Positions 5,301 through 60,695 of a DNA stretch of 64,000 nt are shown here, piece by piece. Under the pieces are notes generated by a model, which saw nothing but the letters and a program-made list of their open reading frames with translations, was not told the origin of the DNA and did no database searches. Position numbers and translations under genes: made by a program. The DNA is from Obrimoposthia wandeli (Eukaryota). Location of the stretch: the NCBI GenBank assembly GCA_977020255.1, contig CDROCS010004434.1:62001-126000 (forward strand), given 5' to 3'. Each line of letters begins with the position of its first letter. Positions within the stretch are counted from its first letter, which is position 1.

Positions 5301-5354
5301 TCGGAACTACATAAACATGATGACGAGTGGTGGCGAAGAAAACCAGAGAACGGT

Positions 5355-10496: not shown

Positions 10497-10620
10497 TGAG
10501 TCAGGAGGAGGTTGTAGATAAATTAGTGTGTGAAATATGTAGAAATATCTAGAAGCGATTGTACAAATAGTAGAAGTATATAAAACTCATGTAGAAATTA
10601 ATCATCATCATGTATTTAGA

Positions 10621-10920
10621 ATGGCCGAAGAATGCCCAATATGTTTGGAAGATCTAACCGAACGAAGAACAAGACCCGAAACCTGCAACCATTTACACCA
10701 CGAGGAATGTTTATCGACATGGATCAGAACTTATGGACAGTTCGGACACCCAACATACCCTCGTTGCCCTGTATGCAGAAGACAATTCGCAAGATTCGTC
10801 ATGTTAGAACCCAACCAAGAGGATGTATATGTACAGGTGGTATTCTGTTGGAAGAATTTCGGAGAGTGTTGGTGTTATTACTGTTTGTCAGATCGACAAA
10901 ATCAGACCACTTTTGTGTAA
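10621..10920 (+). CDS. Small RING-H2 putative E3 ligase, copy 1, with C-terminal CWK..CWCxxC motif
   Basis: CPIC...CNHLHHEEC...W...CPVC pattern. TATATAAAA at ~10577 and TTTAG immediately 5' of the ATG. Confidence 0.8.
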   Translation: MAEECPICLEDLTERRTRPETCNHLHHEECLSTWIRTYGQFGHPTYPRCPVCRRQFARFVMLEPNQEDVYVQVVFCWKNFGECWCYYCLSDRQNQTTFV

Positions 10921-10980
10921 ACATCACACAACCACCAGTCCTCAATCGAGCCCAAATTCAACATCAACCCTCCCACAGTA

Positions 10981-11310
10981 ATGTCTGGAGAATGTTCCAT
11001 CTGCTACGAGAGCATCGTGGACTTCTACACCAAGCCCAACAACTGCGACCACCTTTTCCACGTCGAATGCCTCGAGACGTGGATCCCCATCGCAAACAGC
11101 AACAATCCCCTCGACTTCCCAACCTGCCCGATGTGCAGAGCGACTCTTCTCAGTACACTACGTGTACAACCAAGACAGCCTCCAAGCAGTGGTACCCATC
11201 GTACACTGCTGGAAAACCATCTGCGATTGCTGGTGCTCGTTCTGCGTGGAGGAGCGAAGCACAGGCCAGCCCAATCCCCAACAATAATCGAAGGTAACTT
11301 TCTGACTTGA
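10981..11310 (+). CDS. Small RING-H2 putative E3 ligase, copy 2; C-terminal Cys motif is frameshifted
   Basis: CSIC...CDHLFHVEC...W...CPMC pattern. An alternative frame at ~11190-11260 reads VVPIVHCWKTICDCWCSFC, matching the copy-1 tail. Confidence 0.78.
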   Translation: MSGECSICYESIVDFYTKPNNCDHLFHVECLETWIPIANSNNPLDFPTCPMCRATLLSTLRVQPRQPPSSGTHRTLLENHLRLLVLVLRGGAKHRPAQSPTIIEGNFLT

Positions 11311-11627
11311 ACGTGACATCATGAACTACCCTGTGTATCGCATACCGCGATAAATTAGCTACCATAATTGTAATCATAATTATATAATCTTGTGAACTGT
11401 AAATTGACCATTACCATTTTTATGTATGATGTTTAACTGAAATTGTAATTATTATACTGAATTTCTAAAAAAGACAATTTTTATGCTTAGTGTGAATGCG
11501 TAAACATGCCTAAAATCTAAACAAAACTCGGTAGGATTAGATAACTAAGGATTCATTTTGAAATAAAATTTAAATTAACGATGAGAACGGTGAACCCCAA
11601 ATTGAAAGGAGTTATTTTCTCATGCAG

Positions 11628-12112
11628 ATGAAGTGCGCTGTATGCATGGAGAAAATTTGGGCGGTATCAGCATCCCCTGTCGGCTGCCGCCACAAATTTC
11701 ACGAATCCTGCCTATATACTTGGGCCCGACTTCGACCCGAAGGACATGTCAATTTTTGCCTTTCGCGGAATGGACACTACAGTGTCGAGGGCGCCACAAG
11801 GGCACCCATTCGCTCACCAGCTGTATTGGTGGCGAGCACTGCCATTGCCCCGACTGTATCGCACGCCGTCGCGATGCAAAACTCGCCCTCCGCGAGAAAT
11901 ACCGGTCAACTCGCGACCCCCGCTCATGGCAGCGTGGCCGTCAAATATGGCTCGGAAATCGCGGAATACACGGGCGATATACTACCATTTTCCACCCGAG
12001 TCAACACCTCACCATGCGCCAGCAAATGTTACTATACAATGGCGGCCCACCATCGTATCCGGAACTACCACTGGAGCAGGTCTTGCTGTTCCTGAAGGAC
12101 AGGAACGGTTGA
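11628..12112 (+). pseudogene. RING-H2 protein, copy 3, frameshifted
   Basis: MKCAVCMEK...GCRHKFHESCLYTW, then a frameshift near 11755 into the frame with HCHCPDC that ends at 12112. Confidence 0.7.
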
Positions 12113-12692
12113 CAGATCTCAAACATTCTTGTGACATATCCCAGACAATCTTGTGACATATCCCACACCCTCAATAATTTTGTGTGTAAATTTTTAGTTG
12201 TGTATAAATAATAATGTATGGTTTGAGACTTGCTCCAAATTATATATTATGTTTCCCACTAAAAACCGGAATTTTGGAAAATTTTTTTTTGGGCATGTTT
12301 GTTGAAGTTGAATGATTGATTTTGTAGGGATGAACCTAAAATCAACAGCCAAAGGCTTATTTAAGTAAAATCGATACGTTCCGGGGACGTAACTTTTTTG
12401 GAACCCCCGAGGTATGTTAAGGTCGAGAAATAAGAAAATTAAATATTTTAGTCGATTAAATACTAAAATAAAAATCCTTGAAAGCAAGGTTGAAAATTAA
12501 ATTAAAATATTAATTTTAGTTTTAAAAATTAAAATTAGTGGAATTTAGGGTAAAAATTAGGAGGACCACGAAGGTCGTGTATAATGTGAAAATGTATAAA
12601 AGTTTAAAGTTAATTAACCAAAAGGACAAAAATTAATTAAGGAGAAAATCAGACAATTAAGAATTAATTCAGAAAAGAGAAGTTAATTAAAC

Positions 12693-13006
12693 ACGTCAAT
12701 CAAGGATCCAAAGGTAAGCACATTTTCGTGCAGTAAAAAACTAAAATCTTATTTTGCAGCCGTCATTGATTGACAGGAGATACCAGTTCTCCTACTTCCA
12801 CAATTGTTCTTATTTTGCAGCCGTCATTGATTGACAAGAGATACTAGTTCTCCTACTTCCACAGTTGTCAGCCGTCAATTGATTGACGTCCAGTGCCTCT
12901 ATATAAGGCAGTATCTAGAAACCCACAATCACAACTACAAGTCGACTGGAAAAAAAGAAGAAGCAAGTAGACAGAAGACAATCCCCTCGACCACGAATCG
13001 GTAAGT
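12693..13006 (+). promoter_or_regulatory. LTR promoter: four TGATTGAC motifs, TATA box, ATG-less leader and splice donor
   Basis: TGATTGAC at 12767, 12828 and 12880, inverted at 12693-12702. TATATAA at 12900. G|GTAAGT at 13000/13001. Confidence 0.6.
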
Positions 13007-13050
13007 GGTGATTTGGGACAGAGGTAAAATTAAAATTATTTAGATTGCTG

Positions 13051-13600
13051 AAAAAGTGAACCAATATTCGAGAACCAATAGTTTGAAATATCATTGACCA
13101 ATATTTGAAATATAAAAAGTGAACCAATATTCGAGAACCAATAATTGAAATATCATTGACCAATATTTGAAATATAAAAAGTGAACCAATATTCGAGAAC
13201 CAATAGTTTGAAATATCATTGACCAATATTTGAAATATAAAAAGTGAACCAATATTCGAGAACCAATAATTGAAATATCATTGACCAATATTTGAAATAT
13301 AAAAAGTGAACCAATATTCGAGAACCAATAGTTTGAAATATCATTGACCAATATTTGAAATATAAAAAGTGAACCAATATTCGAGAACCAATAATTGAAA
13401 TATCATTGACCAATATTTGAAATATAAAAAGTGAACCAATATTCGAGAACCAATAGTTGAAATATCATTGACCAATATTTGAAATATAAAAAGTGAACCA
13501 ATATTCGAGAACCAATAATTGAAATATCATTGACCAATATTTGAAATATAAAGTGAACCAATATTCGAGAACCAATAGTTGAAATATCATTGACCAATAA
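13051..13600 (+). repeat. Tandem array of ~9 copies of a 62/63-bp unit, each with three CCAAT motifs
   Basis: Anchor GTGAACC at 13056, 13119, 13181, 13244, 13306, 13369, 13431, 13493 and 13553. Confidence 0.95.
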
Positions 13601-13763
13601 CGCGAAAGAAGTCGAAAGTCACAGTGACTTTGAGGACGATTCCGCCAGACTTACAATTTATCTCTGGAAAGAAGACGATCCCACAAGTTCGTCAAAACCA
13701 CCTACGGACCCTACATCGGACAGCATACTAGTCGCAGCGTATTGGTAAGCCAACCGACTAGAG

Positions 13764-14200
13764 CATTCATTGCCCCTAGTTGGCAATTAGGATACTGTCA
13801 TTACCCCTTGTTGGTAATTCTACATTTTAAATTAATACACAAATTCATTGCCCCTAGCTGGCAATTAGGACAACTCGACTCTTTAACACAATCATTGCCC
13901 CTAGTTGGTAATTAAGATCGGACATTTATTCATTGTCCCCAGCGACAATTAGGAATCCTACCCAGACGTTTTACCTGTAAGATTCATTGTCCCTAGCTGA
14001 CAATTAGGTTCATTCATTGCCCCTAGTTGGCAATTCGGATAAATACTCATTGTCCCTAGTAGACAATTCGGTAAGACTCATTGTCCCTAGCTGACAATTC
14101 GGTTCGTTCATTGTCCGTAGTTGACAATTAGGAGTAAGTTTTCATTGTCATCTTGACAATTAGTTTTTTAGGAGATCCATTGTCACAGTAGACAATTCGG
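13764..14200 (+). repeat. Array of 12 short inverted repeats, ATTRYC-N5-7-GRYAAT, with variable spacers
   Basis: Arm variants ATTGCC/GGCAAT, ATTGTC/GACAAT and ATTACC/GGTAAT all keep pairing. Loop is mostly CCTAGYW. Confidence 0.9.
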
Positions 14201-14794
14201 GTCAAACACACACAGATAGAGTTAAGGAACAAAGAAACATTTAGCTAGAGATAAGAAGTAGGAGCGAAGAAATTTAAGAGAGTTGCGTTATAGATTAACC
14301 AACCTGAGTAAGAAGACTAAACCTAAGAAACTTAATCACCTGAACGTAAAATCGATACGTGGTTCATCCCCACTTCTTGTAGAGACTTACAGAAGTCCTT
14401 TAGGAATTTTATCATACTTTTTAGAAATACGTACATAAACGTATTGTTGTGTTAGTTACGTGAATTACGAATAAACAATTTCCTACATTAGAACAAGTTG
14501 TTTTTACACTCTTCAGACTAAGAGACATCAAATCAAATACCTTCAGATAGTACAAGAGATTAGGCAACCATAACACTAAGTAGGCCACGACCAACTTTAA
14601 GACCTGCTTCTAATCGAACTCACGTTGGGGCCCTCCGCATTCAAGAGGCTCTATACCAAGTTTCGTATAGAAACCCCAACAAAATGAATGAATGACGCAG
14701 AATAAATGACGTTATGGAGAGTCGATAAATACACATCCGTGGACACATTCATAGAAACATGTTCTATTATTGTATACATATTTATTAATTAAAC

Positions 14795-16390
14795 TGTTGG
14801 GGCTAGAGTTGTTGACTTCTACCTAGTGAGTTCTTAAAGGCATAGGAGTTGTGTTTATAAGTGTACCAGGGTTAATATCAAATTTGAAGGTTAATCGACT
14901 TAGGGAAAAATGTATGGTACAAATAATTTAATATAACACAACATAAATCGAAAAGCAATTTTTTATAATGTAACTTCAGATAATCTGTATCACAATTTAT
15001 TATAATGCATGTACACACAATTTCCCGATTAGTAAAATGTACTGTCGTAAGCACATTCTTAACTATATGCCTACTCATATACTACTTCTGATCACCGTTA
15101 CAGGCAATTTGGGCTCTTGTTTTAAAGGACAGGCTCTGGGGTTTAAAAAATAATTACAAAAAAGAGAAATAGGTGGTAAAAAAATTAAAACTTAGACAGT
15201 CTGTCTTACGGTTCCAATGAGAGACTGATATTATGTACTGCCTGGTTTCATCTGCGTATCTGTAAATCTGTTTCCTGTGCTGTTGTACTGCTTGTGTCCA
15301 GAATAACTCCTTCGTTAAAAGAAATTGTTGTCACTGTTTCAGAGATCACCTTAGGTCAATAAACCGACTTTCTGAGTTAATTAATCACTCAAAATTCCTT
15401 TTTTGCGTTTTAATTTTGTTATTTAGTTTTTACCCTTTATGTCCTTGGCCAGGACTATAAATATGTTGGGACTATAGTTATAGAACGCCTCTAGTTCGTG
15501 AGTTTTTAATGGAATGTGACTTGCGTGGAAGGCTTATCCTGTGTTATCTCTAAATATGAAGTTTAACTGTTATGATGTATATGGGTTTTACTTTTATTTT
15601 TAAAACAAATATTAACTATCTGTTTTCAATATTAAAATTATACAACTATAAAATGGTATGACTTAGATATTTTCGATATAAAACTTACACGAATCTTAAC
15701 ACTTAATATGTTAAATAAAACAAGAATCAAATCCAGGTTTGGGAAAAACTTCTAAATCCTATGTAACTTTTACAAAAGTCTGAGACTGTTACGGGTATTT
15801 GACTTTATTTGTAGTTTTCAAAAGAAAGGGACCGTACCGGATTAACAGTTTATATTATTGAGTGAATTTCAGTTTAAATTATTATTTTAAATAATAAGCA
15901 GAAATCTGGCTGGAGAAATCTATATTAAAGGGGTCGTGTCGAGTTAATAGTTTTTTTTAATTCTTGAAAGATTGTAAGTTACTTTTAATAATTTATTTAA
16001 AATTAAAATGTCTGTCTTACGTTAATGTTTATCTGTCTTTGAGTTTTTGTCTTTGCTTTTAATCTACGAGAAGAATTTATTGTTAACGTTTATCTTGCTT
16101 TAAATTCTGTGAATCTGGGTTATTTTTCTGTCTTCTGATTCTCTGTCACCAATTTGTTTTTCGAAGTTTCATTTTTAAAAAGTTAATTCAGTTGATAATG
16201 ACATCGCTAACCAACTTTATTTTAGAACTAATTAACTCACCATCAATTTAACTTTTGGGTTTTTAATTTAAATTGGTCAGGACTATAAATATAGCTAAAT
16301 TTATTTAATATTTAAAATAACTGACCATTTCTGGACATCAACAAATAAAGTTATTTTTTAATTATTCTCCTCCTTTTCTGAACCCCAACA
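14795..16390 (-). mobile_element. Solo LTR (1.6 kb) of a related family, inverted orientation
   Basis: Termini TGTTGGGG...CCCCAACA with 4-bp TSD AAAC (14791-14794 and 16391-16394). Its reverse complement shares GAACTCAC and ACCTTCA with the other two LTR ends. Confidence 0.85.
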
Positions 16391-16434
16391 AAACTTGAAG
16401 GAAAACAAAGAAATACAATAGCACCGTAAAACAA

Positions 16435-16508
16435 TGACACGAACTGGATTCGAACCAGTAACATTCAACTAACGTGGCTTGCGTTCTACCAATTTGAGCT
16501 AATCAGGC
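16435..16508 (-). pseudogene. tRNA-like sequence (pseudo-tRNA, possibly Thr-CGT, or SINE head)
   Basis: A-box TAGCTCAAATTGG and perfect T-arm ACTGG-TTCGAAT-CCAGT. Acceptor and anticodon stems pair poorly. Confidence 0.45.
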
Positions 16509-16529
16509 AACCTATAAACCCAGACAATA

Positions 16530-19500
16530 TTTACACAAATGTCGAAAACATGCCAAAACTTGGTTGAGTCACTTCCGGTTCGTTATTTACCTTAGGTACG
16601 ACTTCATCCAAAGAAGTGCTGAGAATGATCGTTCGATTGTGGCCTTGGTATGGCATGCTAAGATAATGTAAATCAATGACCATGTCACTGATGAGTGTCA
16701 GTGATGCTTGTAACATAGTTTAATCCCCAGTTATTTGCCTAATCATAAATGCATCATCATATTTCTTTACTCCATAACTTTTTTCAAATGTCTGGCTACA
16801 ACGATTTCTGATTCAAAATGAATCGACATATGCTAAACAACTAAAACACTTGTCAAAAGGCAATCAATAAACAATACATTTATTATTATTACTCATATTA
16901 TTTATTACTACACCTGCCATTTATTATACACATCTCCTGATAACTTTATTTAAATTGTTTTTTATCATTTAGAAAAGTATATTATAATTGATCATTACGC
17001 AATAATATGTTTACTTTCATTATTCAACATACTATCAAGATACTAAGCAATTATAACACCTATAAAAAATGGATACAGTTTTTCATTATCAATATTTTAC
17101 TTATGAATAAAACGTTGATTAACCACCATTTCTCTATCACTATCATTTGAGACTTTAAGCCAAGAGTAATTCTTAATTCTCTTCATAATGACTCCATGTA
17201 CAAATTTATGTTGTTTCCTGAATGTAACTACTATTTTATCCTCTGACATACTCTTTGCATGTACTTATATTCCTATAATCGAATTTTTCTTCTTTTACTA
17301 CAATGTTAAACAATTTTAGTCTCATTTAATACTAATATGTCATCGACATAACAAATGACCTCTTTTAAACCGTTTAGAATATGCTCCATCGATTTCTGAA
17401 ATACGTCTGGCGTAGAGCTTAATCCAAATAGCAACTTATTGTATCTATATCGTCAAAATGGTATACAGAATACCAGATACTTCCGGCTCTCATCATCCAC
17501 GAGGATTTGATGATAACCCTTATTTGTGTTAGGATTAGGAATTTAATAATTTTCAAAATAATTAATTATTAAATAGTAAAATAAATCCTTGAAAGCAAGG
17601 ACCGAATCGGATAACAGAGGCCTAGCTTGCTGCACCAGTAAAATCGCGGTGAGAATTGTGCGTCATAAATTGCTTATCATTTATTAGTCCGAAAGATATA
17701 AATTGCTTATCATTTACTAGTTCGAAAGATATAAATTGCTTATCATTTATTAGTCTGAAAGATATAAAGTGAACCCTTATCATTTATTAGTCCGAAAGAT
17801 ATAAATTGCATATCATTTATTAGTCTGAAAGATATAAAGTGAACCCTTATCATTTATTAGTCCGAAAGATATAAATTGCTTATCATTTATTAGTCTGAAA
17901 GATATAAAGTGAACCCTTATCATTTATTAGTCCAAAAGATATAAAGTGACCGTTATTATTTATTGAAGCCGAACGTCATAAATTTATCGGTTCTATAAAA
18001 TCAACCCATATTTTTAGAGCAACCAGCTCTCTAAAATCTACAACCTTAAATTGACCATATTTTTAGAGTAAAGAAACGACCCTCAATTAAAATCGATACG
18101 TGGATCATCCCCACTAGTGTAGAGACTTTGTGCAAAGTAACTAGGATTAGTATTATTGTTTTTAGAACGTGTTAGAACGTAATTTAGTGTGTCTTAGAAA
18201 TAAAGATTTCCTACATTAGGCAGTGTTGTATTGAACAGAACCCTTGCAAGCAAGTAGGTGTCAACTACTCCATATACAACACCACACTAAGGGAATTTTG
18301 CAGTAACCGTATACACAGCTCTTCACACATTTCGCAACACATAGACATAATAAACCTTCAGATAGAAATTGAGATAGGCAAGCTCAACTTAAGTAGGCCA
18401 CAAACAGCTACAAGCCCTGCTTCTATAGAACTCACGTTGGGGCCCTCCATTCAAGAGGATCTATCTGAGAAGTTTCATATAGAAACCCCAACATTTGTGT
18501 CCTTGACTAAAAGAAAGCACTCAATTTAATTTAACCATTATTTCGGGAAAATGTGGCATTTGAAAATTATGGCATACATAGCCTCATATCTCCATTTTCT
18601 TGATTACTGGTATGAGTGAAGAACACCATTCATAGCCTATTACCTCTTCTATTAATTTATCTAGTTCCTTTTTCACAGATTTTTTATAGCTGATACTGTA
18701 CGTCTTGGAGCATAGCATTTTGGCTCAATTAATTTATTTTAATTTTATGCTTAATATTCCTAATGCAGTTACTCTTTACCCGGTCATCTTTCAGGAATGA
18801 AACGGAACACACTGGTAATGTAATTAAATGCAAGTCACAGCATAACTCTGCACTTAACTAAATAATATCTGAATTAACCGACATCCCATAAAATTCGGTA
18901 TTTACACTTTTTTCTTAATAAGTTACAGTAAAGTATTATACCCCAATAATTTTAATTTGTGATTATTATACGTAGTTAATCTTACTGTGGATGGTTTCCA
19001 TCTCATATCCGGGGAAAACTTTACTGGCATTATGTTTACGATAGCCCCTGTATCAATTTCACACATCAGTATTTTTTATTTATATTTAATTTACATTTTT
19101 ATAATTTACGCCTAACTTGTTAAATATTTTAAATTCTCTCAGTCACCGTAATTTTATCCTTAATAAACAAAACTTCTCACAATGGCTTACTTTACCGCAT
19201 TTATACCATTTAAAACTCTTTGTTCTACAATATGAATCATTTGCTAAATGTTTTACCGATCTGTAACGGAAACATTTAATGTGCATATTAGATTGATCAA
19301 ACTTACCAAAATTATTACCTCTTTTCTCATAAGGTTCACTATTATAAGGGACATTTCGTTTTATTGCATTTATATTACTATCAACTTTAGTGCCATTAAC
19401 ATATAAACAATCACCGCATCTAGTTATAAATACGCTTTCATACGCTTCAGCTTGTTATCGCACATTTTAGATTTATTTTACTAGGGTCCTCTCACATCAT

Positions 19501-19720
19501 TACAATAGTCAAAAATAATAATAGCAACTGTAGATTCCAGTTGTTTTTTTAAATCCTCGTCGGCAATTGTTTAATCCCGAGTTAATTGTCAAATCATAAA
19601 TCCCAAGTCATAAACGCATCATCATACTTCTCCAATCCAATTTTTTTTCCAAATTCCTAGCTACAACGATTTCTGATTCAAATGAATCGACATATGCTGC
19701 TATGCAGCTGAAATATACAA
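16530..19720 (-). mobile_element. Heavily decayed Gypsy gag-pol, interrupted by the solo LTR at 17527
   Basis: Minus-strand RT motifs RYNKLLFGLSSTPDVFQK (~17395-17450) and VICYVDDILV (~17330-17362). The gag-start segment is duplicated (~16720-16830 and ~19590-19700). Confidence 0.7.
17527..18493 (+). mobile_element. Solo LTR (~970 bp) related to the element-1 LTR, with an internal 33/36-bp tandem array
   Basis: Termini TGTTAGG...CCCCAACA with TSD TTTG (17523-17526 and 18494-18497). About 8 units of TTATCATTTATTAGTCYGAAAGATAT at 17667-17945. Confidence 0.88.
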
Positions 19721-20289
19721 CAAACATCTGTCAACACACGGATAGATCCGACCATTAGGTCACAAGTTTTCCTTTCACCATTAAGTGACTGCAGCAACAG
19801 GTCCTAGAGTTGGCGGTACATTCTCGAGTCAAGGTAGTCAAATCGCCTCTTGATAAAAGTGATAGCTATATAAAAAATGTCAGAGTTTTGCTGATAGCAG
19901 ATGTCTTTGCACTGGCAGAAAACTGAGGAGCGGTGCTGATCTCATACTTTCTCGGAACTTTGTGTCACCTTAACATATGTGGCTTATCCACATTCAGTAT
20001 ATACGTAAATGACAACCTATTTTATATCATATGAAACATATGAAAAGAAAGATTGGTTTGTTTCATTAAAAATATTAAGGGTACTAGGCTTTCTTTGATT
20101 ATTAAATCAAGAAATTAATCTACAGTTTATGCGTACTTCTAAGAAAATATTCAATAAGTTGTAATCCCAAAGAATGTGCTTTAAATATTTTTAAATCAAA
20201 TCATTAAATGAGCCGCCAAAATTTTAAAATCTGTCGTGAAATTAAAAACAGATTTTTTTAAAGTTGTATTCAACTGTTCGTTTTAGGGA

Positions 20290-20685
20290 TATTGATCATT
20301 ACAGCCGTTTAATAAAGGTGCAGACACTTGAATATATGAGTAAAGATGTATTTGAAATAACAACTAGTTTGTCCTGATATTTCCGACAAGAATCTCTTAC
20401 TATTAGATCAAGACTACCTTGAGTGAATGTTTGCGATGTTTTAAAAATCAATGAAATTGAAAGAATTATTGGTTGGTATCATTCAGGACCAAAAATAAAG
20501 CCAAATAATTGTAAAATAAATTAATGATTTAGTACATATTACGATAAATCCCTAATGGTTATTATTGGTGTTGATCAGCAAGATAGTGATTAATTAACAA
20601 CTAAAGCATATCTTGCTATTGGCAAAATAGTTTGACTTTGGAACTTTGACTACTAAAACTTTTAAATATCTTCCATCGAAAAAAC
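20290..20685 (+). pseudogene. PSMD7: Proteasome lid subunit Rpn8/PSMD7 (MPN domain) pseudogene fragment
   Basis: LDQDYLE*MFAMF, RIIGWYHSGPK, MVIIGV, TKAY and GTLTTKTF align with the remembered PSMD7 motifs LDHDYLENMYGMF, RIVGWYHTGPK, LVIIDV, TEAY and GTPTSKTF. Stops and frameshifts present. Confidence 0.75.
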
Positions 20686-21895
20686 TTTATAGTATACGCA
20701 CAATTTAAGTTTTACTAAGAAAATTTGATTCATTTACAAAAGTTGTTTAAAATTTAAATTATAAAATTAATTATATATACATTTCATAACGTGACTCAGC
20801 ATTCTTACTAAGTCACTTTGTTGTCAGCCGAAGGATTGGCCAATTAAGGCCTCGTTTATTACTTCTGCTCTTTAGAGTGCGTGTTGTTTATCTGACATTT
20901 TGCGATGGTGTCAGTTGGTATTTTGATGTTGTACTTTGCCACAATAACTTGAAGTTCAGTTTTGTCAGTTAAGGTTTTACAGTACAATTGAAGAAGAAAA
21001 TTTGTAATATACAATAAGGAAGATGGGATTGTATGTACAAATGTATATTAGCTCATTTAATTATTTTAGATTTTAATATATTTTAACAATTTATTGAAGA
21101 AGAAAAGTTTGTGATTAATAAAAAAAGTCAACAAAGGGTTTAATTTTTCCCATAGTGTGAAAATATATCTTATAAGCCATACCACTATTTAAAGATGAAT
21201 TAACAGTCTCATCTTTAGTGGTGCACATTTAAAAAAATCCAATTAATAACACAGTCTTCTTAGTTGTTGAAACTGATTGTGCAACAGCTGGTCTTGAGGT
21301 TCTGGTAGATACTACACATTAGTATTTGATCGCCATGACTGAGGAGATATTTTCCCGGCTCTAATTTCTAATTAAGAAGTTCGTTTAGTGGCATTTGATT
21401 AAACAATTATACAAAACCTTTTATGCTATTAACTCTTTGCTTTCTGATCATTTTGAGGTACCCAAACACTACAATTCTTTCTAAAATATGAATATTGAAT
21501 CAAAATAATCCTTACTGTTACGCGCTTTATTCAAATAATTGCATCAATGTAAAGAGTTACTCTAGGATCATTCTTGATGAATTATTTAACTTAAATCACA
21601 AATTCTTTTTTCGTATTGAAGGTCAATCACTTTATGGTCCATCAGATAATTGTTTTATTTTAAAACTATTTGAAATCCTTATATTAATCGAAATAAAGTT
21701 TACATAGATTGTACATGTGTTCCTCATACATTTAGCAACTTTTCATGAATATCATTAATATGGATTCCATTTTTATTTCTGTTTATGCATAAAAAGGGTT
21801 GAAAATATTAAATATTCAATTTTATCTACAATGTTAATGAAATTTAAATATAAATATGTATAGCAAAATTATTATTTGGATTTTGAAGACTAGAT

Positions 21896-24069: not shown

Positions 24070-24507
24070 CTTTAGATGTTTGTATAATTAATTATTAACT
24101 TATTGATTCAATAAAACAATTGACAGTGAAAATTTTATTAGTATCAAGACTTTCCAGTCATGCTAATATATTAATATTTCATCACAAGTGAATAAAATCT
24201 AAAATAAATTAAATTTTTCAGTAAAGATATAAAATGTATAAGACTTTTATCTGGAAAAATTAATAAATTGTATAAAATATTTACAAAAATACCGGCAAAA
24301 CATTTTGAAATTTTATCGTATATCCCATGCAACTTCGGAATTATTTATGTATTTGAACAAATAATATAACTAACCTTTTATTGAAAAAACACTGATTAAA
24401 TTATTATTTGTTAACAAAAATTACAATATTATGAAATAATGCGTTGCTGTTTTTATTTATTTGCCACAGCTTTAGTAACAAATTAAACAAGTTATATTTT
24501 CTTTTAG

Positions 24508-32187
<7,680 letters not shown>

Positions 32188-34900: not shown

Positions 34901-35149
34901 AACTAACTACAGTGATCAATTTTGATCAACATGATTGAGTTAACGACAAAAATGTGACTTTTCTTTTTTTTTTCCTTTACTAAAATGGTTTTTCATTTTT
35001 CCATACACATTTTAAATTTATCTGAGTAGAACATTAAAAAATTCTCCAACAGAATTTGTAGAAAACTTCTTATCGCGGACATATTTTATCAGTTGATTCA
35101 TTTCTTTTTTGAAATCATAACGCATATTGTGAAGTACCACAATCGATAA

Positions 35150-42900: not shown

Positions 42901-42959
42901 ACTCCTTGTTCTCGACATCAACTTCGTCGAACGTAGATTTGTGAAGAAACAGTTTGCAT

Positions 42960-51406: not shown

Positions 51407-51919
51407 GTTATAATTACAGGTATTTTTCAATTTTTATTAACAAAATTAAAATTATTTTAAAGATAAAAATGTTTGGAAGATAATTGTAGAATACAAACTG
51501 TTATGGGCAAGAGGCATTTTGTGATAAAAATTATTTTTTAACATTTAATTTTTTTAATATTAAATAAATATTTTAAAATTTTTGGATCAAAAGTTAGTAA
51601 GTTATATGTTTTATCTGTTTGTGTAAAAGTTGTACGAAAAATTGAAATTGACTGTATAGCATAATATTTAATATAAACTGTAGATATTGCAGCGTAATTA
51701 GTAAATTTAAATAGTGAACAAAATTTCTAATATATTTTTACTTGCACATAATTTATAATACATTTTAAGATATGTTCTTCTCGTTATTCAATTAAATCAA
51801 AGTAATTACATTTTAAAAATACGGTATTTTATGTATTCGAAAATAATATTTGTTCATGCTTAGCACAGCTTTTGTTTAAATATTCGTTATTTACGTAATT
51901 TTTAAAAATATTGAACGTT

Positions 51920-53709
51920 ATGGCAGACACTAAATTATCAACTGGATTTTCGTTATTAACTATTGATGATAACCCTGATGGATGGGGTCCTTATACAGTC
52001 CCGGAAAAATTTGCAGATCTTCCTTATCAGCCATTTAATAAAGATATAAAATTAGGCAAATTTGCAGATTGGACAAGCAATTATAATCCTGACTTACGGA
52101 AGAAGATGGATAAAATGAATAATATGAATTATCAAGGAAATCAATATGCATATGTACATGAAGATGATGAAAGTACTTTCCATATGGTCAATACTGTTAA
52201 AGATCAGAAATCGAGCTTTTTAAAGCAGAAGAACAAATTTGCTGCCAATAGAACCCGCAGAGAAAAGGTCGCTCAGAAACAACAGCAACAACTCGAACAA
52301 CAATCTCGCTTAGGATTGACTAAGAAACAGAAGTTTATAAATAGAGAAAGGCAACAAGATATGAGAAGGATTAATAAGCAACATGGTCGCTTAAATAATG
52401 CTACCGGATGGGGTAATGATTATCGTAGACAAGCTCGAATTCATAGAGAGGCTTCGGTTCAAGTTAAAGATACATGGAAAGTAGTTGAGGAGATCGAATT
52501 TAGTCGATTCAACAAACTATCAATGATCCTCTCAGAAGAACCAGAAGATCTTTATACTTGTGGTGAATTAAGATATTATGATAAGAATCACGACAGAATT
52601 ACTACACATAATACACAGAAATTGAAACTTATGAATCGCATAATTCATAATGTTGCCACTGGAGATGATCCTATAATTCGTAAATTGGCTAGTGAAAAGG
52701 CTGGAAATGTTTTTGCTACCGATGCTTTAATATCGGCACTTATGTGTTGTACACGTTCTGTTTATTCTTGGGATATTATCGCCCAGAAAGTAGGAGATAT
52801 TCTTATTTTAGACAAAAGACCGGGCAATAACAATTTCCATTTTGTTACTGTAAATGAAACTGCAAGTGAGCCTCCAGTTGAAGATTCGAATAATATTAAT
52901 TCTTCTAGCAGTTTGTCACTGGAAGCTACATTTATAAACCATAACTTTACCCAACAAGTTCTTCAACAGGTAATTGGTGTTTTAATGTATTTTAAATAAA
53001 ATAACTCTTTAAATATTTTATTAATTCTATTTATTTTCAGAAAACATTTGCCTTCGATAATCCGAATCCATTCTTGGATGAAGACGAGGACAAATTAAAC
53101 CTGGGTTCAGTGGGTTATCGATATAGAAAGTTTAACCTTGGTAACGATATCAAATTGGTCGTGCGATGTGAACACGATGCGGTTATAGAGCGAGGACAAA
53201 CCACCGATGCTGACTCAGATACAGTCGCTTCTACTCAACCTCAATTCATGACCGTGCGTGCCCTTAATGAATGGGACTCGCGCATGTGTGGTGGTATTGA
53301 CTGGAGAAACAAATTAGATGTACAGCGTGGTGCCATTCTTGGAGCAGAAATAAAAAACAATTCATACAAGTTGGCTAAGTGGACCCTAACAGCTTTGCTG
53401 AGCGGCAGTGACCAGATGCGTTTAGGATACGTGAGCCGAGAGAACTGCAAAGCCAATAGCAGCCACACCGTTCTTGGAGTACAGCAGTTTAGACCCACCG
53501 AATTTGCGTCACAGATCAATCTCAAGATGGAAAACGCCTGGGGTGTTCTGCGCTCCATCATTGATCTAGTAATGAAGCTGGATGCCGGTATGTACCTCAT
53601 CATGCGTGACCCCAACAAGCCAGTTATGAGAATCTATGAGTGTCCCATGGATGCTTTTGAGGAGGATGCTGACGCCGACAGTGACGAAGAAGAGGACGAG
53701 GAGCAATAA
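51920..53709 (+). CDS. EIF3D: Eukaryotic translation initiation factor 3 subunit D; exons 51920-52969 and 53041-53709 (572 aa)
   Basis: [42 protein letters not shown] and LAKWT motifs. 71-nt GT-AG phase-0 intron. Confidence 0.97.
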
Positions 53710-56700
53710 TATGTGGAACTATTTCACTTTTTGAGATGCGTTAATAGACGATGTTACGTGGTTTTCATGTTTTGATCTTAAAACCGTTTTCCGGTTGATT
53801 TTTGCTACATTTTTAGATGTGTCTAAAATCATTGCTTCTAGATTATTTTTAATAATAACAATTACTAAATTTTAAGTGAGTTTTTTTTGTCTAAAATCTT
53901 TGCTTCTAGATTATTTTTTAATAATAACAATTACTAAATTTTAGGTGAGTTCTCAAACATTTACTGACGTTTCAAATATTAACATAAGAAAGTGTCACCT
54001 TTCAACAATAAACTTCCTTTACGTATGATATACAATAGGTAATTTAATTGTTAAACTGGCCCAGTAACATGTCTAAAGATATATATAACGTTTGCTTGCT
54101 ACGAACAATCAGAGTCAACTAGATCCTGACATACTACAAAAAGACGATATATTATATAAATGGAAGGCCGAATGTTACATAATTTCTTTAAAATTGTAAG
54201 TATAAATATAACTTGTAAATTCATTCAACAAAATATGGCGATTGCAATAATTTTTAAATTCTCAATTCTTAGAAGTTTAAATAAATTAGGTAGGTCTTCT
54301 AAGGATTTAATCTTAACCAAATGTTTGCTCAAACTCTTGAATAATCCCTTAAAATAACTCTTATTTTATGTCAGGCCATCTGCATTATGTAAGGTCAGTG
54401 GAATAAATGCAAACAAATTCATTTACCCATCCGTGTCTTTAGATGATTCGGAAACAATTAAATTCTTTCCGGATTTTCCATGATGGTTGAGTATGTCTTT
54501 TGATCTACATGAAAATTTGTATTTTAGTGCTATATGGATTTATAATCAAAGGTGAGAATTAATTCAAGGGCATTTTCAATCTATTTATTCTATAAAGTAT
54601 GGAGGATCGAGTTATTTGATGATTGTACATTGACCAAATAAATTCTCAGCGTGGATTATGGCTTAGAGACCGCTGGAATTAACAGTTGGTGGCCTGGTCA
54701 TGGGATTGACTTGTTTAGGAGAGCCAGTCCTCTTCAAAAACCGAGTGTCTCGATAAGATTTGAAGAATTTATGTTTTGGTTTCTTAAAATAAATTAAAAA
54801 TACTATTTGTGAATTTTAATATTCATTAAACATGAAGAAATTATTAATTGAAGAAAAATACAAGAAGAAACAAAGTGAAGGGTTATCAGATATTTAAAAT
54901 ATTTAAGTGAATCGTGATCACATTGTATCAAAATTTCAGATATCAGTAAAATGTGCTACATTCAATACATTCAATGAGGCTATTTATACATAATTAGATG
55001 AATTTAGGGTTATTCCATGTTTATTTGATAAAACATTTTACATAATGAAATTATTAACAATAATATTGGAATTATTGATTTGGATTGGCTGTATAATATT
55101 GTCAAATTTCAATTTGGTTAACACTAGAACTACGAATCAGTGTTTTCCTACCGCAATTTCTTGTTATCATACCTAGAGCTTACATTTTCTGGGTAAAAGT
55201 GACACCAGATTTATGTATTGGGAGATAAATTTATTAATTGTCAGTGTGGCCAAAAGTGACTGTTGAATTGTATCTGTCACATTTTACTGTCAAAATCACT
55301 TTAAGAAATACTATTTGTATCTACAGGATGCTCCAGTTGATTGTGTCAAAAAACAGATAGAAAGTTGGTCATGTACAAAATAAACGGTTCATATTATTTT
55401 GCTGTGTAAACTATATTAAAAAATATAATAAAAATACGTCAGAGCATCTCAGAGGTCACTGAGGTATGCTCTGTAAGTGTAAAAATTCACAAATTATCCA
55501 AACAGTCATTTGGTTGGATCAGCAACTTTATCTGTTGTTGAGAAGAAGGCTGCCACACAAGTCTTGTCAGAACTGTACATGTCTGATAAACAGAAGAAGG
55601 TATAATTTTTTAATATTTAAATAAAGGTAAAAACTTAATTTTATTGAAATTTATTCAGATACCTATCTGATTTTATTACAAAGAATATGATTTTAATTTA
55701 ATTTATAGAAACAATTAAAATAGTTTCTTAAAATATTTACACTATGAAATAAGATTTGTCTTATAATAATTTTAGAATACGTTTTTAAGTGAGAATTTGT
55801 TTTTAACATTTATTGATTCACATTTTTTTAAAGCAGCAGTAAAATGTATTTTTGTTGTTAAATATGTAAAAGAATGTTAGACATTGAATATGTAATTAAA
55901 AAATAACAATACTTCTATATTTTTAAAATATCATGTAACTATTTAATACGATTAGGTTCACTCAAGAAATTATTTTTCTTAAGGTTTCAGAAATGGACAA
56001 ATAAAATTATAAATAAAAGTTAAATTTTACTGAAATTAAATGGAGATTTAGTAAGTTTAATTTATGTATCTGACGTAGTAATTTAAAAAAAGTTTTGAAT
56101 TTGTTGAGAAGCCGAAACTTCTGGGACTGAAATAGTCACTTGACTACATTAGGCACATGAATTGAGAGTCTCAAAAACATGTAAGGCAGAACAATTGAAA
56201 TCGAAGATTTGATCACAAGCTGAAGTAGCCTTCTATTGGCCGATTAAGTCCGTAGCAAGAAGACTTTAAAACAATGCACAAAGATCACTTTAAACAAATT
56301 ATAGTGATAATTGTAGACGAAAATCTATTTTCAACAAATGACAAATTTCGATAGAAACAATAGCCTCATTCAGAAGAAGAACAGAAGGCAACGTCACAGA
56401 ATCTCTGACACACAAGTCCCACCAACGATCACATATGCTATCCAGAACAATAAGAGGACGGTGAGAACAATATTGCACGCATAGACATAAATTATTATCT
56501 AAAATTCAGAAAACTTAATAATTTTTAATATAAATTAATTGTATGCATTTTAATAGTTGTGGATCCGGAACGGTATAAGGCCAAAACAATCTGAGTTAAC
56601 TCAGCATGGTAACCAATAATAACAAACATAATATTTATGAGTTTTGATGTAATTGTTTCTATACTTTTTAGTCAATTTGATTCTGTGAACAACGATATAT

Positions 56701-57399
56701 TTTATTCAAAAATTGTTAAGTATTATAATTTTATTTTTGAATTGACAAATTTTGTTTACTCTGAATTATCTAGCTCTAGAGAGTACGCTCATAGGAAGAA
56801 CCCTACCTTCAACTTCGATTTAAGACAGACTATTTTAACCTTCAGATTTTAAATTATAATCAGGGTAGTCCCTCTAGACAGACTTATACATTTACTAACT
56901 CACGAGTTAGATTCTTCCTTATTAAATGAAATAACTCTAGCCCTAACTTCTGTAAGGCTTACACAAACTAAAAATAGTTTTGTAAACGATTCACGTCGGA
57001 TAACAGTTGCTTATTTGTTTTATAGTGCATATTTCAAACGACCGAACATTACATTGCATTTAAATACAACACGTTTCTATTCTGTATTTTCTGTGAATAA
57101 AATTCAACTTTGATTATTTTGTTATAAGAATAAAGAAAGGTTTAGTCTTTACCAAAACTGACTAGGTCGTGGTGGCTTTTTGACTGATACGTTTTAAATG
57201 CCGATAAAATATATATCTTCAACGATGGAAGTGGTTTGTTTTTCTAATTTTTTAGAACTCTGTAAACGAAGTATAATGGATTTCAAGGTGAAAAAAAATA
57301 AAAGAACATAATAACAGAATTTAATTTTAGAATTTTAACCAAAATTTACCTAAGTACCCTATTTACATTGCACATTTCACACACCTACAAATTTATAGC

Positions 57400-57560
57400 C
57401 GCTAAATCCATCTTTGACAACTTCCTAAAAAAAGAAACAATAAGACCATCAAAGTCACGTTGGGATTCTGCTTGAATGAAGAAAAGGGAAACGTCTGGAG
57501 AATGGAGATGTTGCAAAGACTACAAAGCACAGAACATTTTAACAGTTTCAGACGTATATC
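57400..57560 (+). pseudogene. Short Gypsy RT N-terminal fragment
   Basis: TIRPSKSRWDS...GEWRCCKDYKA resembles the conserved IIRPSKSPWAS...WRPCGDYRALN. Confidence 0.6.
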
Positions 57561-58478
57561 TGATAAGTTACAAAAAATAACTAAATTGTATTTTCATATA
57601 ATTGAGTCTTTGTAATGATAAAGTCTTTTCTTCTTCAGAATAAATGTGTTAAAAGGATAATCAAAATAATACTGTTTTAAACTTATTCAAATTATTGTGT
57701 GTAATTGTTATGGTTCCACTAATAATATATAGTCTGTAGAGACATGCAGCAGGAAATCAGCGCTGGAGAAATGTCGGAGACAGAGAAATTGTGTCTTCTT
57801 TTGGCGACGCTTTTTCTAGTGCATAGATAAGAGGAGAAAGGGAGCGGTCATGGAGAAAACCACTTGTTATCTCCGGGGCAGGGAGACAGACTGCGGCATC
57901 TGTCAAAGGTCGAGGATAAATGGCAGCTTTTGGCAACTCGAACTGGGCTGACCGCGTATTTGGCATTTGTTGCTGAAGTAGACCATCTATACCGCTCACA
58001 CACCCATGCACAACAGGCAGCATAGTGAGAGAGAGGGATTGAAAATCAATAGGGCACAGCTACCAATCTAGATACAAGGGAGATTGAGACGGGAAGAGAT
58101 TACGGCTGCTGGTTGTCGAGGATAAACGATTGTAAGGATAATCCAGGCAGTCTGATCTGACGATGTCGGGAAAGCGGGGAACTGCATTGGGTAGTACGCA
58201 CACGAGTTGGATGGAAATAGATGCAGTTTGGGTTGGTTGAAGTGGCAGCATTTAAGAGTGGACACACCAGTCGACTGGGATTACCGAGAAGGATGATGAG
58301 GAAGGAATGTGGAGGAGAGGCCGCTGCAATCCGGGGAAGGCAGTCCGGGAAGGTGTGGAAGATGGGTGACTCTGCACAACCTGGGCGACTGTGTGCAGGT
58401 AAGTGCCCTTTATTTTTTATCTTTTATCTCTGACTTCGCGGGCATTTTGCCCACCGCGAAACCAGAGACAAATCCGCC

Positions 58479-58528
58479 GTCCCCCTGACGAGCCCGGCAG
58501 GGCGAAACCGGTTAAGCCGGTCGGGGAC
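58479..58528 (+). ncRNA. Minimal type I hammerhead ribozyme; predicted GUC cleavage after 58522
   Basis: Stem I GTCCCC/GGGGAC, core CTGACGA, stem II GCCC-GGCA-GGGC, GAAA, stem III ACCGG-TTAAG-CCGGT. All core nucleotides are present. Confidence 0.88.
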
Positions 58529-58855
58529 TGAACTAAATAAACTGATTATTAAATGCCAAAGTGCATTTCACTTACCCTAAAATATTTCCCTAATTAAGGA
58601 AATTTCTCTCGTTATTTCTTAATTAAGAAATAATTTAAATTTTTAAATTGTATTTTTATTTTTTAAAATTGTAATCCTAACAATCCTCCGGCTAATAAAA
58701 GTTCTGGCCTCAGAATTCAAATTTCCAGTAAAACACAAATAAAAATCAATTTTTCACAATTAAATTACTTAAAAATTGATAAAACTTTTAAACATTGAAA
58801 ATATTCTTGATAAAAATAGTAATACTTATTAATGAAGCAATAATAATACCTTAGT

Positions 58856-60013
58856 TTATACGTTGTCTACAATAAAACATTCATCGGAGTCGGAGTCGGA
58901 GTCTGTTATCTCACTTGGGATACTCAACAAATCGTTTAGACGAAATTCCTCCACCAGTCTATCTCTACGTTTTTCAAAAACTCGCTTGATATTCTTGGTA
59001 TCCTCTAAACATGTGTGAATCTTCTTCTGTGTTTCTTCTCCAAAATATTTTGATATCATTGTCTTTAATCCTATTTTTGGATGGTTATGGCCAAGTTCTG
59101 TTCTTATTTCAGTTGATGCACCCAGGTCCACGATTCTAGCAAAATGTTGTTTTTCTAGTCTTAATACTTTCAAATCATTTTCTAATCCTGCACCTATCAA
59201 AACATTTCCTACTAATATTGATTGTGCTTTTTCAATGACTTCCTCTGCATCAGTTTTTCCTGTCAAAGATTTTTCGGTGAAACCAGTTATAAACTTAACA
59301 TAATTTCGTATTCTTTCTCTTGGCGTTACTATTTCATGTAATACAATCTGATCTTTTTCATCTATGATTGTAATGCTAGCCAATGTTTGTTTTTTGTCTA
59401 CCGTGATGGCCATTTCGCAATCCATGAAATATTTAATTGGAGTTTTTGATATATTTGCATTTTCTAAAAACATTATTTTATTCGTTTTCCAGATTAACTC
59501 TATAAAAAATGTATTTCTTCTGGGACTAAATTTTAGGAGATATTCGCTTCTTAATTCTTTTTTATCAATGGTATAAGAATGATTTTGTAAAAACATGTTA
59601 CTTAATTTCTTTTCTTGTTTACTCATTAAATGGGCTCTTCCTTCTGCCACATGAATTTCTATTTCTTCTACGTCTTGTAAATCTCCTACTAATTCTGATA
59701 AATTTATTCTTACATTTTTGGTGTGGTGCATAGTAAAAATTACACTTTTTCTGCTAGTCTTTGTAATTTTTAATTTATTAGGAATATGCGTTTGGTCTTG
59801 GAATATCTGTTTTCCTTCTCCATTTTTAAAATATCTATTGCTATACTGTCTTAATCTTCTATATAGGAATTTCGCAAAAATGTTCATTGTTGGAGTGCAT
59901 AATGGTTCTTCCTCTAAACTATTGGTAAGGTCTACGACTGATGGTGAAAAATCGTCCAAACAACTTTCCCCTACAACTCGGATCCATTTCCGTTTGTTTG
60001 TTGAGAACTCCAT
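58856..60013 (-). CDS. DEDDh 3'-5' exonuclease (REX4/ISG20-like) with unknown N-terminal domain
   Basis: ExoI FMDCEM, ITGFT, ExoII IGAGLENDLKVL and ExoIII HTCLEDT. Intact 385-aa ORF. Confidence 0.85.
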   Translation of the reverse strand: MEFSTNKRKWIRVVGESCLDDFSPSVVDLTNSLEEEPLCTPTMNIFAKFLYRRLRQYSNRYFKNGEGKQIFQDQTHIPNKLKITKTSRKSVIFTMHHTKNVRINLSELVGDLQDVEEIEIHVAEGRAHLMSKQEKKLSNMFLQNHSYTIDKKELRSEYLLKFSPRRNTFFIELIWKTNKIMFLENANISKTPIKYFMDCEMAITVDKKQTLASITIIDEKDQIVLHEIVTPRERIRNYVKFITGFTEKSLTGKTDAEEVIEKAQSILVGNVLIGAGLENDLKVLRLEKQHFARIVDLGASTEIRTELGHNHPKIGLKTMISKYFGEETQKKIHTCLEDTKNIKRVFEKRRDRLVEEFRLNDLLSIPSEITDSDSDSDECFIVDNV

Positions 60014-60179
60014 CTGTTACATAATTCAGTCGGAGTAAAAATAGAATAATGAAAAAATAAATAATAAAGAAAAATTTTCATGCAATTGTAGAATATGTAG
60101 TCCTAATTTTTGTACAACAGATTTATTATATATTGATCAAGTTATCATTCTGGCCAAATTAGCCCAATTCGGATTCATT

Positions 60180-60524
60180 TCAGGAATCATGTCCATAAAT
60201 AAAGTTTCGATTCCTGTTGGGAATAATGAGTCTGTCCATTAAATGTTGGGTCTGTGACTGCAGAGCTAAAATTACTCTCCGTTGAGAACTGATTCTATGA
60301 TAAAGATCATCAATTTTATGTGAATCAGATTTGATTATTTGTTCAAATTCATTCATTTCGATATTTTTACTGAGATTTTCTTCCACCAATCTTTTAATAT
60401 TCGATTTCAGTTTGTCATTTTGTTTTATCGTTTTTATAAAATAATCATCATGATGTTGTTTAATGTCTTGGATTTTTCTTTTTAATTTATGGCATTGACT
60501 GCAGACTTGAAATTTTTTGTTCAT
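60180..60524 (-). CDS. Small coiled-coil accessory protein with N-terminal CxxC
   Basis: CSQC followed by heptad-like L/I periodicity. Acceptor-like TAATTTAG lies 2 nt before the ATG. Confidence 0.5.
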   Translation of the reverse strand: MNKKFQVCSQCHKLKRKIQDIKQHHDDYFIKTIKQNDKLKSNIKRLVEENLSKNIEMNEFEQIIKSDSHKIDDLYHRISSQRRVILALQSQTQHLMDRLIIPNRNRNFIYGHDS

Positions 60525-60695
60525 TTCTAAATTATAGTTAATATATATTGTCGGGTCTTTATCCCGATATTTGGTTTTTTCTAAATTAAGTTTTTTACAC
60601 TTTTACAAATATCTATACACACATACATACTCATCCTCATCTAATATTTATTTGAATATTCTGTTTTAATTAACTCATAAAAATAATATATCTGT

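What the first reader, a model, noticed from the sequence alone, without database searches (positions are those of the whole stretch)
10600..60545. All five small cargo ORFs have a splice-acceptor-like AG 0-2 nt before the ATG
Seen: TATTTAG|aATG (10621), CCCTCCCACAG|taATG (10981), TTTTCTCATGCAG|ATG (11628), and on the minus strand TAATTTAG|aaATG (60524) and a T-rich tract then GTAACAG|ATG (60013). The LTR has a TATA box, an ATG-less ~70-nt leader and a strong G|GTAAGT donor at 13001, with a second donor near 13744. Known: complex retroviruses express accessory genes by splicing one leader to many acceptors, and flatworms and nematodes resolve polycistronic RNA by SL trans-splicing. Inference: the cargo cassettes are expressed by one of these routes. 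Caveat: AG is a common dinucleotide.
Basis: partly seen in the sequence, partly recalled or inferred. Interest (0 to 1): 0.7.

Follow-up and report, generated by a model that had tools for sequence, protein, structure and literature searches.

The report
Retrotransposon cargo genes use splice acceptors
Five small extra genes in two jumping-gene families of what is likely a flatworm each have a splice-acceptor signal right before the start codon; for one of them, three genomic copies lack exactly the intron ending there, so splicing likely happens at that site, and the genes are probably switched on by splicing from the element's own leader rather than by their own promoters.

Summary
The five AG sites are present as quoted, and all are YAG. 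About 11% of other ATGs in these elements have one, so 5 of 5 is about 2e-5 before post-hoc correction. The ORFs belong to two different Gypsy families: a 24-kb Burro-like element (three RING ORFs) and a 12.5-kb element with its own LTR (a coiled-coil-like ORF and a DEDD exonuclease).

No RNA run was available. The genome itself records splicing: three copies, from two independent lineages, lack exactly 11294-11627 (GT...AG), ending at the RING3 ATG; 0 of 14 other deletions are GT-AG. The donor used lies 6 nt after the RING2 stop, not in the LTR.

The 13001 donor has a local partner 43 nt away (an LTR mini-intron). The 13745 donor is the better long-range candidate. The leader has no ATG for 3.5 kb. 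No leader-to-cargo or SL junction was found, and such RNAs would rarely be copied into DNA.

Best reading: real acceptors fed by cis-splicing from the leader (0.5); SL trans-splicing is the main rival (0.3). Earlier scan notes describe this family on other contigs, but not its splicing.

The parts
10618..10619 (+). AG (TAG) acceptor-like site before RING1
   Evidence: 30 of 30 copies, but the spacer is 63 of 67 columns invariant, so this says little
10621..10920 (+). RING1 cargo ORF, 99 aa, RING finger plus Cys-rich tail
   Evidence: Pfam zf-RING_2 E 3e-10
10977..10978 (+). AG (CAG) acceptor-like site before RING2
   Evidence: kept as TAG in diverged copy L126
10981..11310 (+). RING2 cargo ORF; this copy is frame-broken near 11145; most copies encode 101 aa that end 6 nt before the 11294 donor
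   Evidence: (74 of the RING2 starts tallied, by far the largest class)
11294..11627 (+). 334-nt GT-AG intron (GTAACT...TGCAG) between RING2 and the RING3 ATG
   Evidence: absent precisely in L088 (=L107/L302) and L093 (=L296), and with one junction substitution in L295; donor GTAACT in 30 of 30 copies; both ends kept in L178, whose intron is 73% identical
11628..12095 (+). RING3 cargo ORF (frame-broken in this copy; 3' part has strongly diverged alleles)
12415..14681 (+). 3' LTR of element A (5' LTR at L033:700-2843, 99.8% identical, 4-bp target duplication AAAT)
12595..12601 (+). first TATA; the ATG-free leader begins here
12714..12759 (+). 46-nt GT-AG mini-intron module after the first TATA
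13001..13043 (+).
13745..13750 (+). donor without a local acceptor by my criterion; candidate long-range donor
   Evidence: present at the matching place in 17 of 21 LTRs
14470..14475 (+). AATAAA, likely shared poly(A) signal
   Evidence: about 212 nt from the LTR end in 20 of 21 LTRs
60527..60528 (-). AG (TAG) acceptor-like site before B1; AATAAA 126 nt upstream
60180..60524 (-). B1 cargo ORF (114 aa here, 121 aa in 23 of 30 copies), only weak sub-cut-off Pfam hits
60014..60015 (-). AG (CAG) acceptor-like site before B2; T-rich tract; AATAAA 114 nt upstream
   Evidence: A 30 of 30, G 29 of 30
58856..60013 (-). B2 cargo ORF, 385 aa, DEDD-type 3'-5' exonuclease domain
   Evidence: PDB SDN1 E 1.8e-8, ISG20 E 5e-4
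57561..58682 (-). 3' LTR of element B (end approximate), unrelated to the LTR of element A

Best explanation
The YAG before each cargo ATG is likely a real 3' splice site; three genomic copies lack exactly the GT-AG intron that ends at the RING3 ATG, and the RING cassettes are most likely expressed by cis-splicing from the ATG-free LTR leader. Proposed working: one LTR promoter makes the genomic RNA. A donor in the R region without a local partner (13745 or a neighbour) joins the leader to one of three alternative acceptors, so the cargo ATG is the first AUG. All three mRNAs would end at the LTR poly(A) site. The 11294 donor closes the RING2 exon and can splice on to RING3. When this happens on genomic RNA, the spliced form is reverse-transcribed and integrated. 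Shown: the motifs, the intron-less copies, the ATG-free leader and the local partners of 12714 and 13001. Inferred: that the intron-less copies arose by splicing, acceptor use at RING1, RING2, B1 and B2, and every leader-to-cargo junction. Element B probably also uses its acceptors, but its donor is unidentified.
For: Precise GT-AG loss in L088, L093 and L295. L088 and L093 are 96% identical upstream and 69% downstream, while each has intron-bearing relatives at 98.6-99.1%, so two events. L295 is a sister of L088 (99.85% upstream). L088 and L093 are otherwise collinear elements with LTRs. 0 of 14 other distinct deletions of 30 nt or more are GT-AG. The RING3 AG is invariant in 34 of 34 haplotypes while positions -12, -11, -9, -7 and -6 vary in 6-12 of 34. 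Leader: no ATG between L033:878 and 4442; 6 ATG against 241 CAT in 33,464 nt of LTR zones. Shared AATAAA in 20 of 21 LTRs; no AATAAA before RING1 or RING2, and in only 29 of 69 haplotypes before RING3. Precedent: bdelloid LTR ORF3s are said to be expressed typically from spliced messages (PMC5408684, passage); Cer1 CERV comes from a spliced mRNA (PMC10309623, passages).
Against: No leader-to-cargo junction in any search. These had blind spots, and RNAs spliced from R lack the primer site, so the blank is weak. No intron-less copy was found for RING1, RING2 or B2; B1 was not searched. The 11293-to-11628 joint was not among the 11 joints in the four public contig sets. The RING2 acceptor has a poor pyrimidine tract (13% T in 60 nt). 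AG conservation cannot be told from background at four sites, because the spacers are 67-100% invariant. The leader donor would have to skip about 20 kb. The ATG-free leader is explained equally well by scanning to gag.
Confidence: 0.5

Rival explanations
1. The acceptors are real, but they mainly receive the host spliced leader (SL), which cuts the element's long RNA into single-gene mRNAs like a flatworm operon. The cis event on record would then be a minor use of the same site.
For: The host's commonest cox1 type reads AAA as Asn and ATA as Ile, the flatworm/echinoderm code (recalled). Flatworm operons have about 100-nt spacers (PMC8629364 part 2; PMC12582326 passage, median 99 bp). Both B acceptors have AATAAA 114-126 nt upstream and B2 has a 57% T tract. 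Cis- and trans-splicing share acceptors in parasitic flatworms (PMC12582326 section 11). Cer1 subgenomic mRNA occurs with SL1 (PMC3315495 passages). Partial SL sequences lie in flatworm LTR and LINE elements (PMC12582326 passage).
Against: There is no poly(A) signal before RING1 or RING2, and it is in only 29 of 69 haplotypes before RING3. Operon-type SL sites show the least cis-splicing (PMC12582326 section 11), yet RING3 shows cis use. An SL ending in AUG would open a long out-of-frame ORF at RING1 (read from the sequence). It would be in frame at RING3 and B2 and stop within two codons at RING2 and B1, so this test is neutral overall. No SL-joined copy was seen. SL RNA genes were not looked for in this genome.
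Confidence: 0.3
2. Each cassette has its own internal promoter, or is reached by re-initiation. Only the RING3 AG is an acceptor, for a 3'-UTR intron of the RING2 transcript.
For: A TATATAA lies 43 nt before the RING1 acceptor end, and TATA-like sequences lie 21 nt before B1 and 119 nt before B2. The only recorded splice leaves RING2 stop, 6 nt, RING3 ATG, a spacing that could allow re-initiation (inference).
Against: The RING1 TATA is TATGTAA in 11 of 49 haplotypes (the set is enriched for mutated copies). RING2 has no TATA within 250 nt. Upstream ATGs lie 10 and 31 nt before the RING1 acceptor and 9 nt before B2. This reading leaves 4 of 4 further YAGs to chance (about 1e-4 from the rates).
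Confidence: 0.15
3. The AGs are chance, and the 334-nt loss is an ordinary DNA deletion at a 2-nt AG microhomology.
For: The junction carries the AG on both sides by nature. The loci were picked by patterns anchored at these sites, which biases the deletion sample.
Against: The same two breakpoints occur in two lineages whose flanks differ within about 12 nt on both sides. The other clean deletions have 4-11 nt homology and no GT-AG ends. YAG in 5 of 5.
Confidence: 0.05

Closest known systems
Burro/GYPSM1 giant Gypsy elements of planarians (PMC6431247, section 7 read)
   Same: One very long gag-env-pol frame with a mononegavirus-type fusion domain between gag and protease, CCHC, BIR and RING, plus accessory ORFs; thousands of copies.
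   Different: 24 kb rather than over 30 kb; DUSP domain; three separate 3' RING ORFs. MATH, BCL2 and ankyrin were not found by Pfam at E 0.001. The section read says nothing on how accessory ORFs are expressed.
Spliced ORF3/env of Gypsy elements, including bdelloid Juno/Vesta DEDDy ORF3 (PMC5408684, passages)
   Same: An extra 3' ORF typically expressed from a spliced message; DEDD exonuclease cargo as in B2.
   Different: One ORF3 there, against two or three tandem cassettes here, each with an acceptor abutting the ATG. B2's best solved relatives are SDN1 and ISG20, not the RNase D-like type.
C. elegans Cer1 subgenomic cerv mRNA (PMC3315495, PMC10309623, passages)
   Same: A Gypsy element whose genomic RNA keeps usable splice sites; an acceptor precedes the initiator ATG; the mRNA is found with and without SL1.
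   Different: One multi-exon accessory protein there, against several single-exon cassettes here. The donor and SL use are unknown here.
Complex retroviruses (one major donor, many acceptors, shared poly(A); recalled, no call)
   Same: Predicted architecture of the RING region.
   Different: A Gypsy element. The candidate donors are in R, 5' of the primer site, and no Rev/Tat-like regulator was tested.

Membership tests
Burro-like giant Gypsy | single giant gag-env-pol frame with env between gag and protease | tested here: met
   open frames of 2129 and 3333 aa in adjacent pieces of a copy; Monjiviricetes_fusion E 8e-96 between zf-CCHC and protease
Burro-like giant Gypsy | BIR/RING anti-apoptosis module in the polyprotein | tested here: met
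   BIR E 3e-9, zf-C3HC4_3 E 4e-11
Burro-like giant Gypsy | MATH, BCL2 and ankyrin motifs | tested here: inconclusive
   no Pfam hit at E 0.001; no profile-profile search done
Burro-like giant Gypsy | total length over 30 kb | tested here: not met
   24 kb from LTR to LTR; hence 'Burro-like', not filed as Burro
Burro-like giant Gypsy | RT phylogeny with Burro1-4 | not tested
   no reference sequence on hand
one-leader, many-acceptor cis-splicing | acceptor before the accessory ATG is used | tested here: met
   RING3 only:
one-leader, many-acceptor cis-splicing | leader donor joined to cargo acceptors | not testable with these tools
   no RNA run listed; genomic junction searches blank but largely blind to it
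one-leader, many-acceptor cis-splicing | shared LTR poly(A) signal and no conserved internal one | tested here: met
   element A: (sequence motif only)
SL-resolved operon | poly(A) signal about 100 nt before the acceptor | tested here: inconclusive
   present at B1 and B2, absent at RING1 and RING2, 29 of 69 at RING3
SL-resolved operon | SL RNA genes in the host | not tested
SL-resolved operon | SL on the cargo mRNA | not testable with these tools
   no RNA run listed

The most novel reading that the evidence does not exclude
A giant enveloped Gypsy element runs a virus-style expression programme for a battery of captured ubiquitin ligases. A modular LTR of swappable TATA-plus-mini-intron units and a 3.5-kb AUG-free leader feed alternative acceptors placed flush against each start codon. 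Alternatively, above all in element B, the element has become an operon resolved by the host's spliced leader. Intron-less daughter copies give a fossil record of this splicing.
Probability: 0.35. Interest if true: 0.75.

Novelty: new variant of a known kind. Interest (0 to 1): 0.52.

Why it matters
The Burro review section I read lists accessory ORFs without saying how they are expressed. Here the splice sites are mapped, one has genomic support, and the open question (LTR leader or SL) comes down to one RT-PCR or 5' RACE. An SL result would show a retroelement using operon processing for several cargo genes. A leader result would show complex-retrovirus-like regulation in an invertebrate Gypsy element. 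The intron-less copies also show that splicing of genomic RNA reshapes the cargo region and that such copies can multiply. I found no paper on spliced multi-cassette cargo in Burro-like elements (searches; the library lacks most subscription papers, and Grohme et al. 2018 was not seen).

Tried and rejected
RNA evidence: no RNA holder listed. The four runs are one sample of unrecorded kind with even depth. Their joints showed no GT..AG skip: 0 of 11, and 0 of 15 shown, with 60 not shown.

Local mini-intron before each cargo ATG: rejected. The GT at 10576 is AT in about 70-74% of laid depth, and the GT at 11590 is absent in many haplotypes.

Donor at 5293 with acceptor at 5346: rejected. In most copies it lies inside the continuous polyprotein frame.

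L178 (LTR fragment abutting RING2): not counted as splicing. It keeps U3 and its mini-introns, and the related LTRs show no clear donor at the joint.

L113/L121 (deletion before RING2): has filler bases and is not a clean GT-AG loss.

Acceptor-side searches: RING1 0 of 11 and 0 of 30 examined of 36; RING2 0 of 30 examined of 38; B2 0 of 2; 13001 donor, 0 matches; B1 not searched. These patterns miss junctions whose base at -3 equals the genomic one (C at RING2, RING3 and B2; T at RING1).

LTR mini-intron loss: 1 of 34 modules under strict flanks, against 0 of 378 shifted controls. A second pair (L009/L012 against L011) was seen by eye only. A looser scan gave 2 GT-AG among 68 events, mostly repeat noise.

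No homologues for RING1 or B2. No Rfam hit in the window. eIF3d homologues gave no taxon.
Full report
Observation. All five quoted contexts are in the sequence and all are YAG. Among ATGs on the sense strand of the two elements, 122 of 454 and 17 of 94 have AG 0-2 nt upstream; 50 of 454 and 10 of 94 have YAG. Five of five is about 6e-4 (AG) or 1.5e-5 (YAG) by my arithmetic, before allowing for post-hoc choices. The TATA at 12900 and the donors at 13001 and 13745 are there too.

Two elements, not one. Element A ends in an LTR at 12415-14681. Its 5' twin is at L033:700-2843, 99.8% identical, with a 4-bp target duplication and a primer site, so it is 24 kb long. The first look found 3634 candidates in the genome, 40 of them scored. 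Other copies hold long open frames across the region that is frame-broken here. Domains are CCHC, a mononegavirus-type fusion protein, protease, BIR, RING, protease, RT, RNase H, integrase and DUSP, close to the Burro layout (PMC6431247, section 7 read). Three RING ORFs follow. Element B (minus strand) is a 12.5-kb Gypsy with an unrelated LTR of about 0.85-1.1 kb (935 candidates). Its cargo is B1 (no Pfam hit above cut-off) and B2, a DEDD exonuclease related to SDN1 and ISG20. The commonest cox1 type in the assembly reads AAA as Asn and ATA as Ile at conserved sites, which points to a rhabditophoran flatworm (code assignment recalled).

No RNA was available, so I looked for a genomic record. 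An LTR element copies its RNA into DNA, so an intron spliced from genomic RNA is missing in the daughter copy. I searched for cargo starts with a foreign base at -3, and for the donor followed by a non-G.

For RING3, 1 of 5 hits, 2 of 24 donor-side hits and 3 of 20 hits of a wider pattern join window 11293 directly to the ATG at 11628. They lack 334 nt that begin GTAACT and end TGCAG. These are three copies: L088 (=L107, L302), L093 (=L296) and L295, the last with one substitution at the junction. L088 and L093 are otherwise collinear elements with different LTR types. They are 96% identical upstream and 69% downstream, and each has intron-bearing relatives at 98.6-99.1%. The loss therefore happened at least twice. 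L295 is a sister of L088.

As a control, none of 14 other distinct deletions of 30 nt or more, in 191 oriented loci, has GT-AG ends (that script mis-set the right end of the RING3 junction because of allele differences, and one search shows the true junction). The RING3 AG is invariant in 34 of 34 upstream haplotypes. Both donor and acceptor survive in a copy whose intron is 73% identical. Against: this joint is not among the 11 joints listed from four public contig sets, possibly because the alleles differ from the window just after the ATG.

The donor used is local. It lies 6 nt after the RING2 stop of most copies and is GTAACT in 30 of 30 copies. No junction was found for RING1 (0 of 11; 0 of 30 examined of 36), RING2 (0 of 30 examined of 38) or B2 (0 of 2). 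B1 was not searched. At these four sites AG conservation cannot be separated from background: spacers are 63 of 67, 56 of 56, 111 of 166 and 84 of 115 columns invariant.

The LTR. Promoter zones differ greatly between copies whose interiors are 98% identical. They contain GT-AG modules of mostly 41-45 nt (26 of 34 distinct modules). One is present in L026/L217 and precisely absent in L020 (1 of 34; 0 of 378 shifted controls). It therefore needs no distant acceptor. The 13745 donor has no local partner by my criterion and is present in 17 of 21 LTRs, though inside a block that is conserved as a whole. From the first TATA to the gag ATG there is no ATG for about 3.5 kb; LTR zones hold 6 ATG against 241 CAT. 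AATAAA lies about 212 nt from the LTR end in 20 of 21 LTRs.

Mechanism. The acceptors sit flush against the ATGs, remove nearby upstream ATGs, and at least one is very likely engaged by the spliceosome in cis. In element A there is no conserved internal poly(A) signal (none before RING1 or RING2; 29 of 69 haplotypes before RING3). A nested set of spliced mRNAs sharing the LTR 3' end is the simplest model (0.5). RNAs spliced from R lack the primer site and cannot be copied by the element, so the lack of leader junctions in DNA is expected (inference).

SL trans-splicing remains a strong rival (0.3). Flatworm operons have about 100-nt spacers (PMC8629364, parts 1-2 of 4 read; PMC12582326, passages and sections 7 and 11). 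Element B has AATAAA 114-126 nt before both acceptors. Cer1 makes an SL1-bearing subgenomic mRNA (PMC3315495, passages). Internal promoters (0.15) fit poorly: the 10577 TATA is broken in 11 of 49 haplotypes (biased set) and RING2 has none. Chance: 0.05.

Comparison. Spliced expression of a 3' extra ORF is known for Gypsy elements (PMC5408684, passage; PMC10309623, passages). What is new here is several single-exon cassettes each with its own acceptor, a fossil record of splicing, and a modular, intron-bearing, AUG-free LTR leader. PMC8532177 (passages) mentions Burro expression but has no occurrence of 'splic' or 'intron'. No supplements were read. Earlier scan notes on other contigs describe the same family, its RING genes and its variable promoters; a word search for its splicing found nothing.

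Verdict: observation confirmed, interpretation partly supported, new variant of a known kind, interest 0.52.

Noticed in passing
window 12595-14681 and L033:878-4442: About 3.5 kb of leader (LTR, primer site, repeats) has no sense ATG; primer site to first ATG is 1254-1784 nt in 18 of 19 copies.
   Followed up: partly
window 12714-12759, 13001-13043; L020 against L026: LTR promoter zones are mosaics of TATA and 41-45-nt GT-AG modules with presence/absence between copies.
   Followed up: partly
window 13765-14200: Array of short inverted-repeat units in R, 5-8 units in 17 of 21 LTRs; folding z -2.28; interleaved with GTAAGA donors; possible export or packaging element.
   Followed up: partly
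L033:2900-3170: Tandem repeats containing TTTCAG, an acceptor-like word, right after the primer site.
   Followed up: no
L033:4071-4442: The gag frame is open for about 118 codons before its first ATG in all six copies viewed; a non-AUG start is possible.
   Followed up: no
window 11640-12100: The RING3 3' part has alleles only about 69% identical among copies that are 96-99% identical just upstream.
   Followed up: no
window about 58400 (+ strand), element B LTR: A conserved antisense G|GTAAG donor, with hypervariable sequence beyond it in the LTR.
   Followed up: no
window 60640-60581 (-): A further TAG|ATG opens a 19-codon ORF upstream of B1.
   Followed up: no
L178:4457-5300 (-): A diverged copy in which an LTR fragment of a related family abuts the RING2 start.
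   Followed up: yes
L031, L032, L034, L035: Polinton-like ORFs flank the window, and one block interrupts element B (identification by eye from motifs).
   Followed up: no
window 51920-53709: Host eIF3d gene with a 71-nt intron at 52970-53040.
   Followed up: partly
G000 cox1 hits: The assembly holds many bacterial-type cox1 genes and a second animal-type mitochondrial cox1 (L072), so it is contaminated.
   Followed up: no
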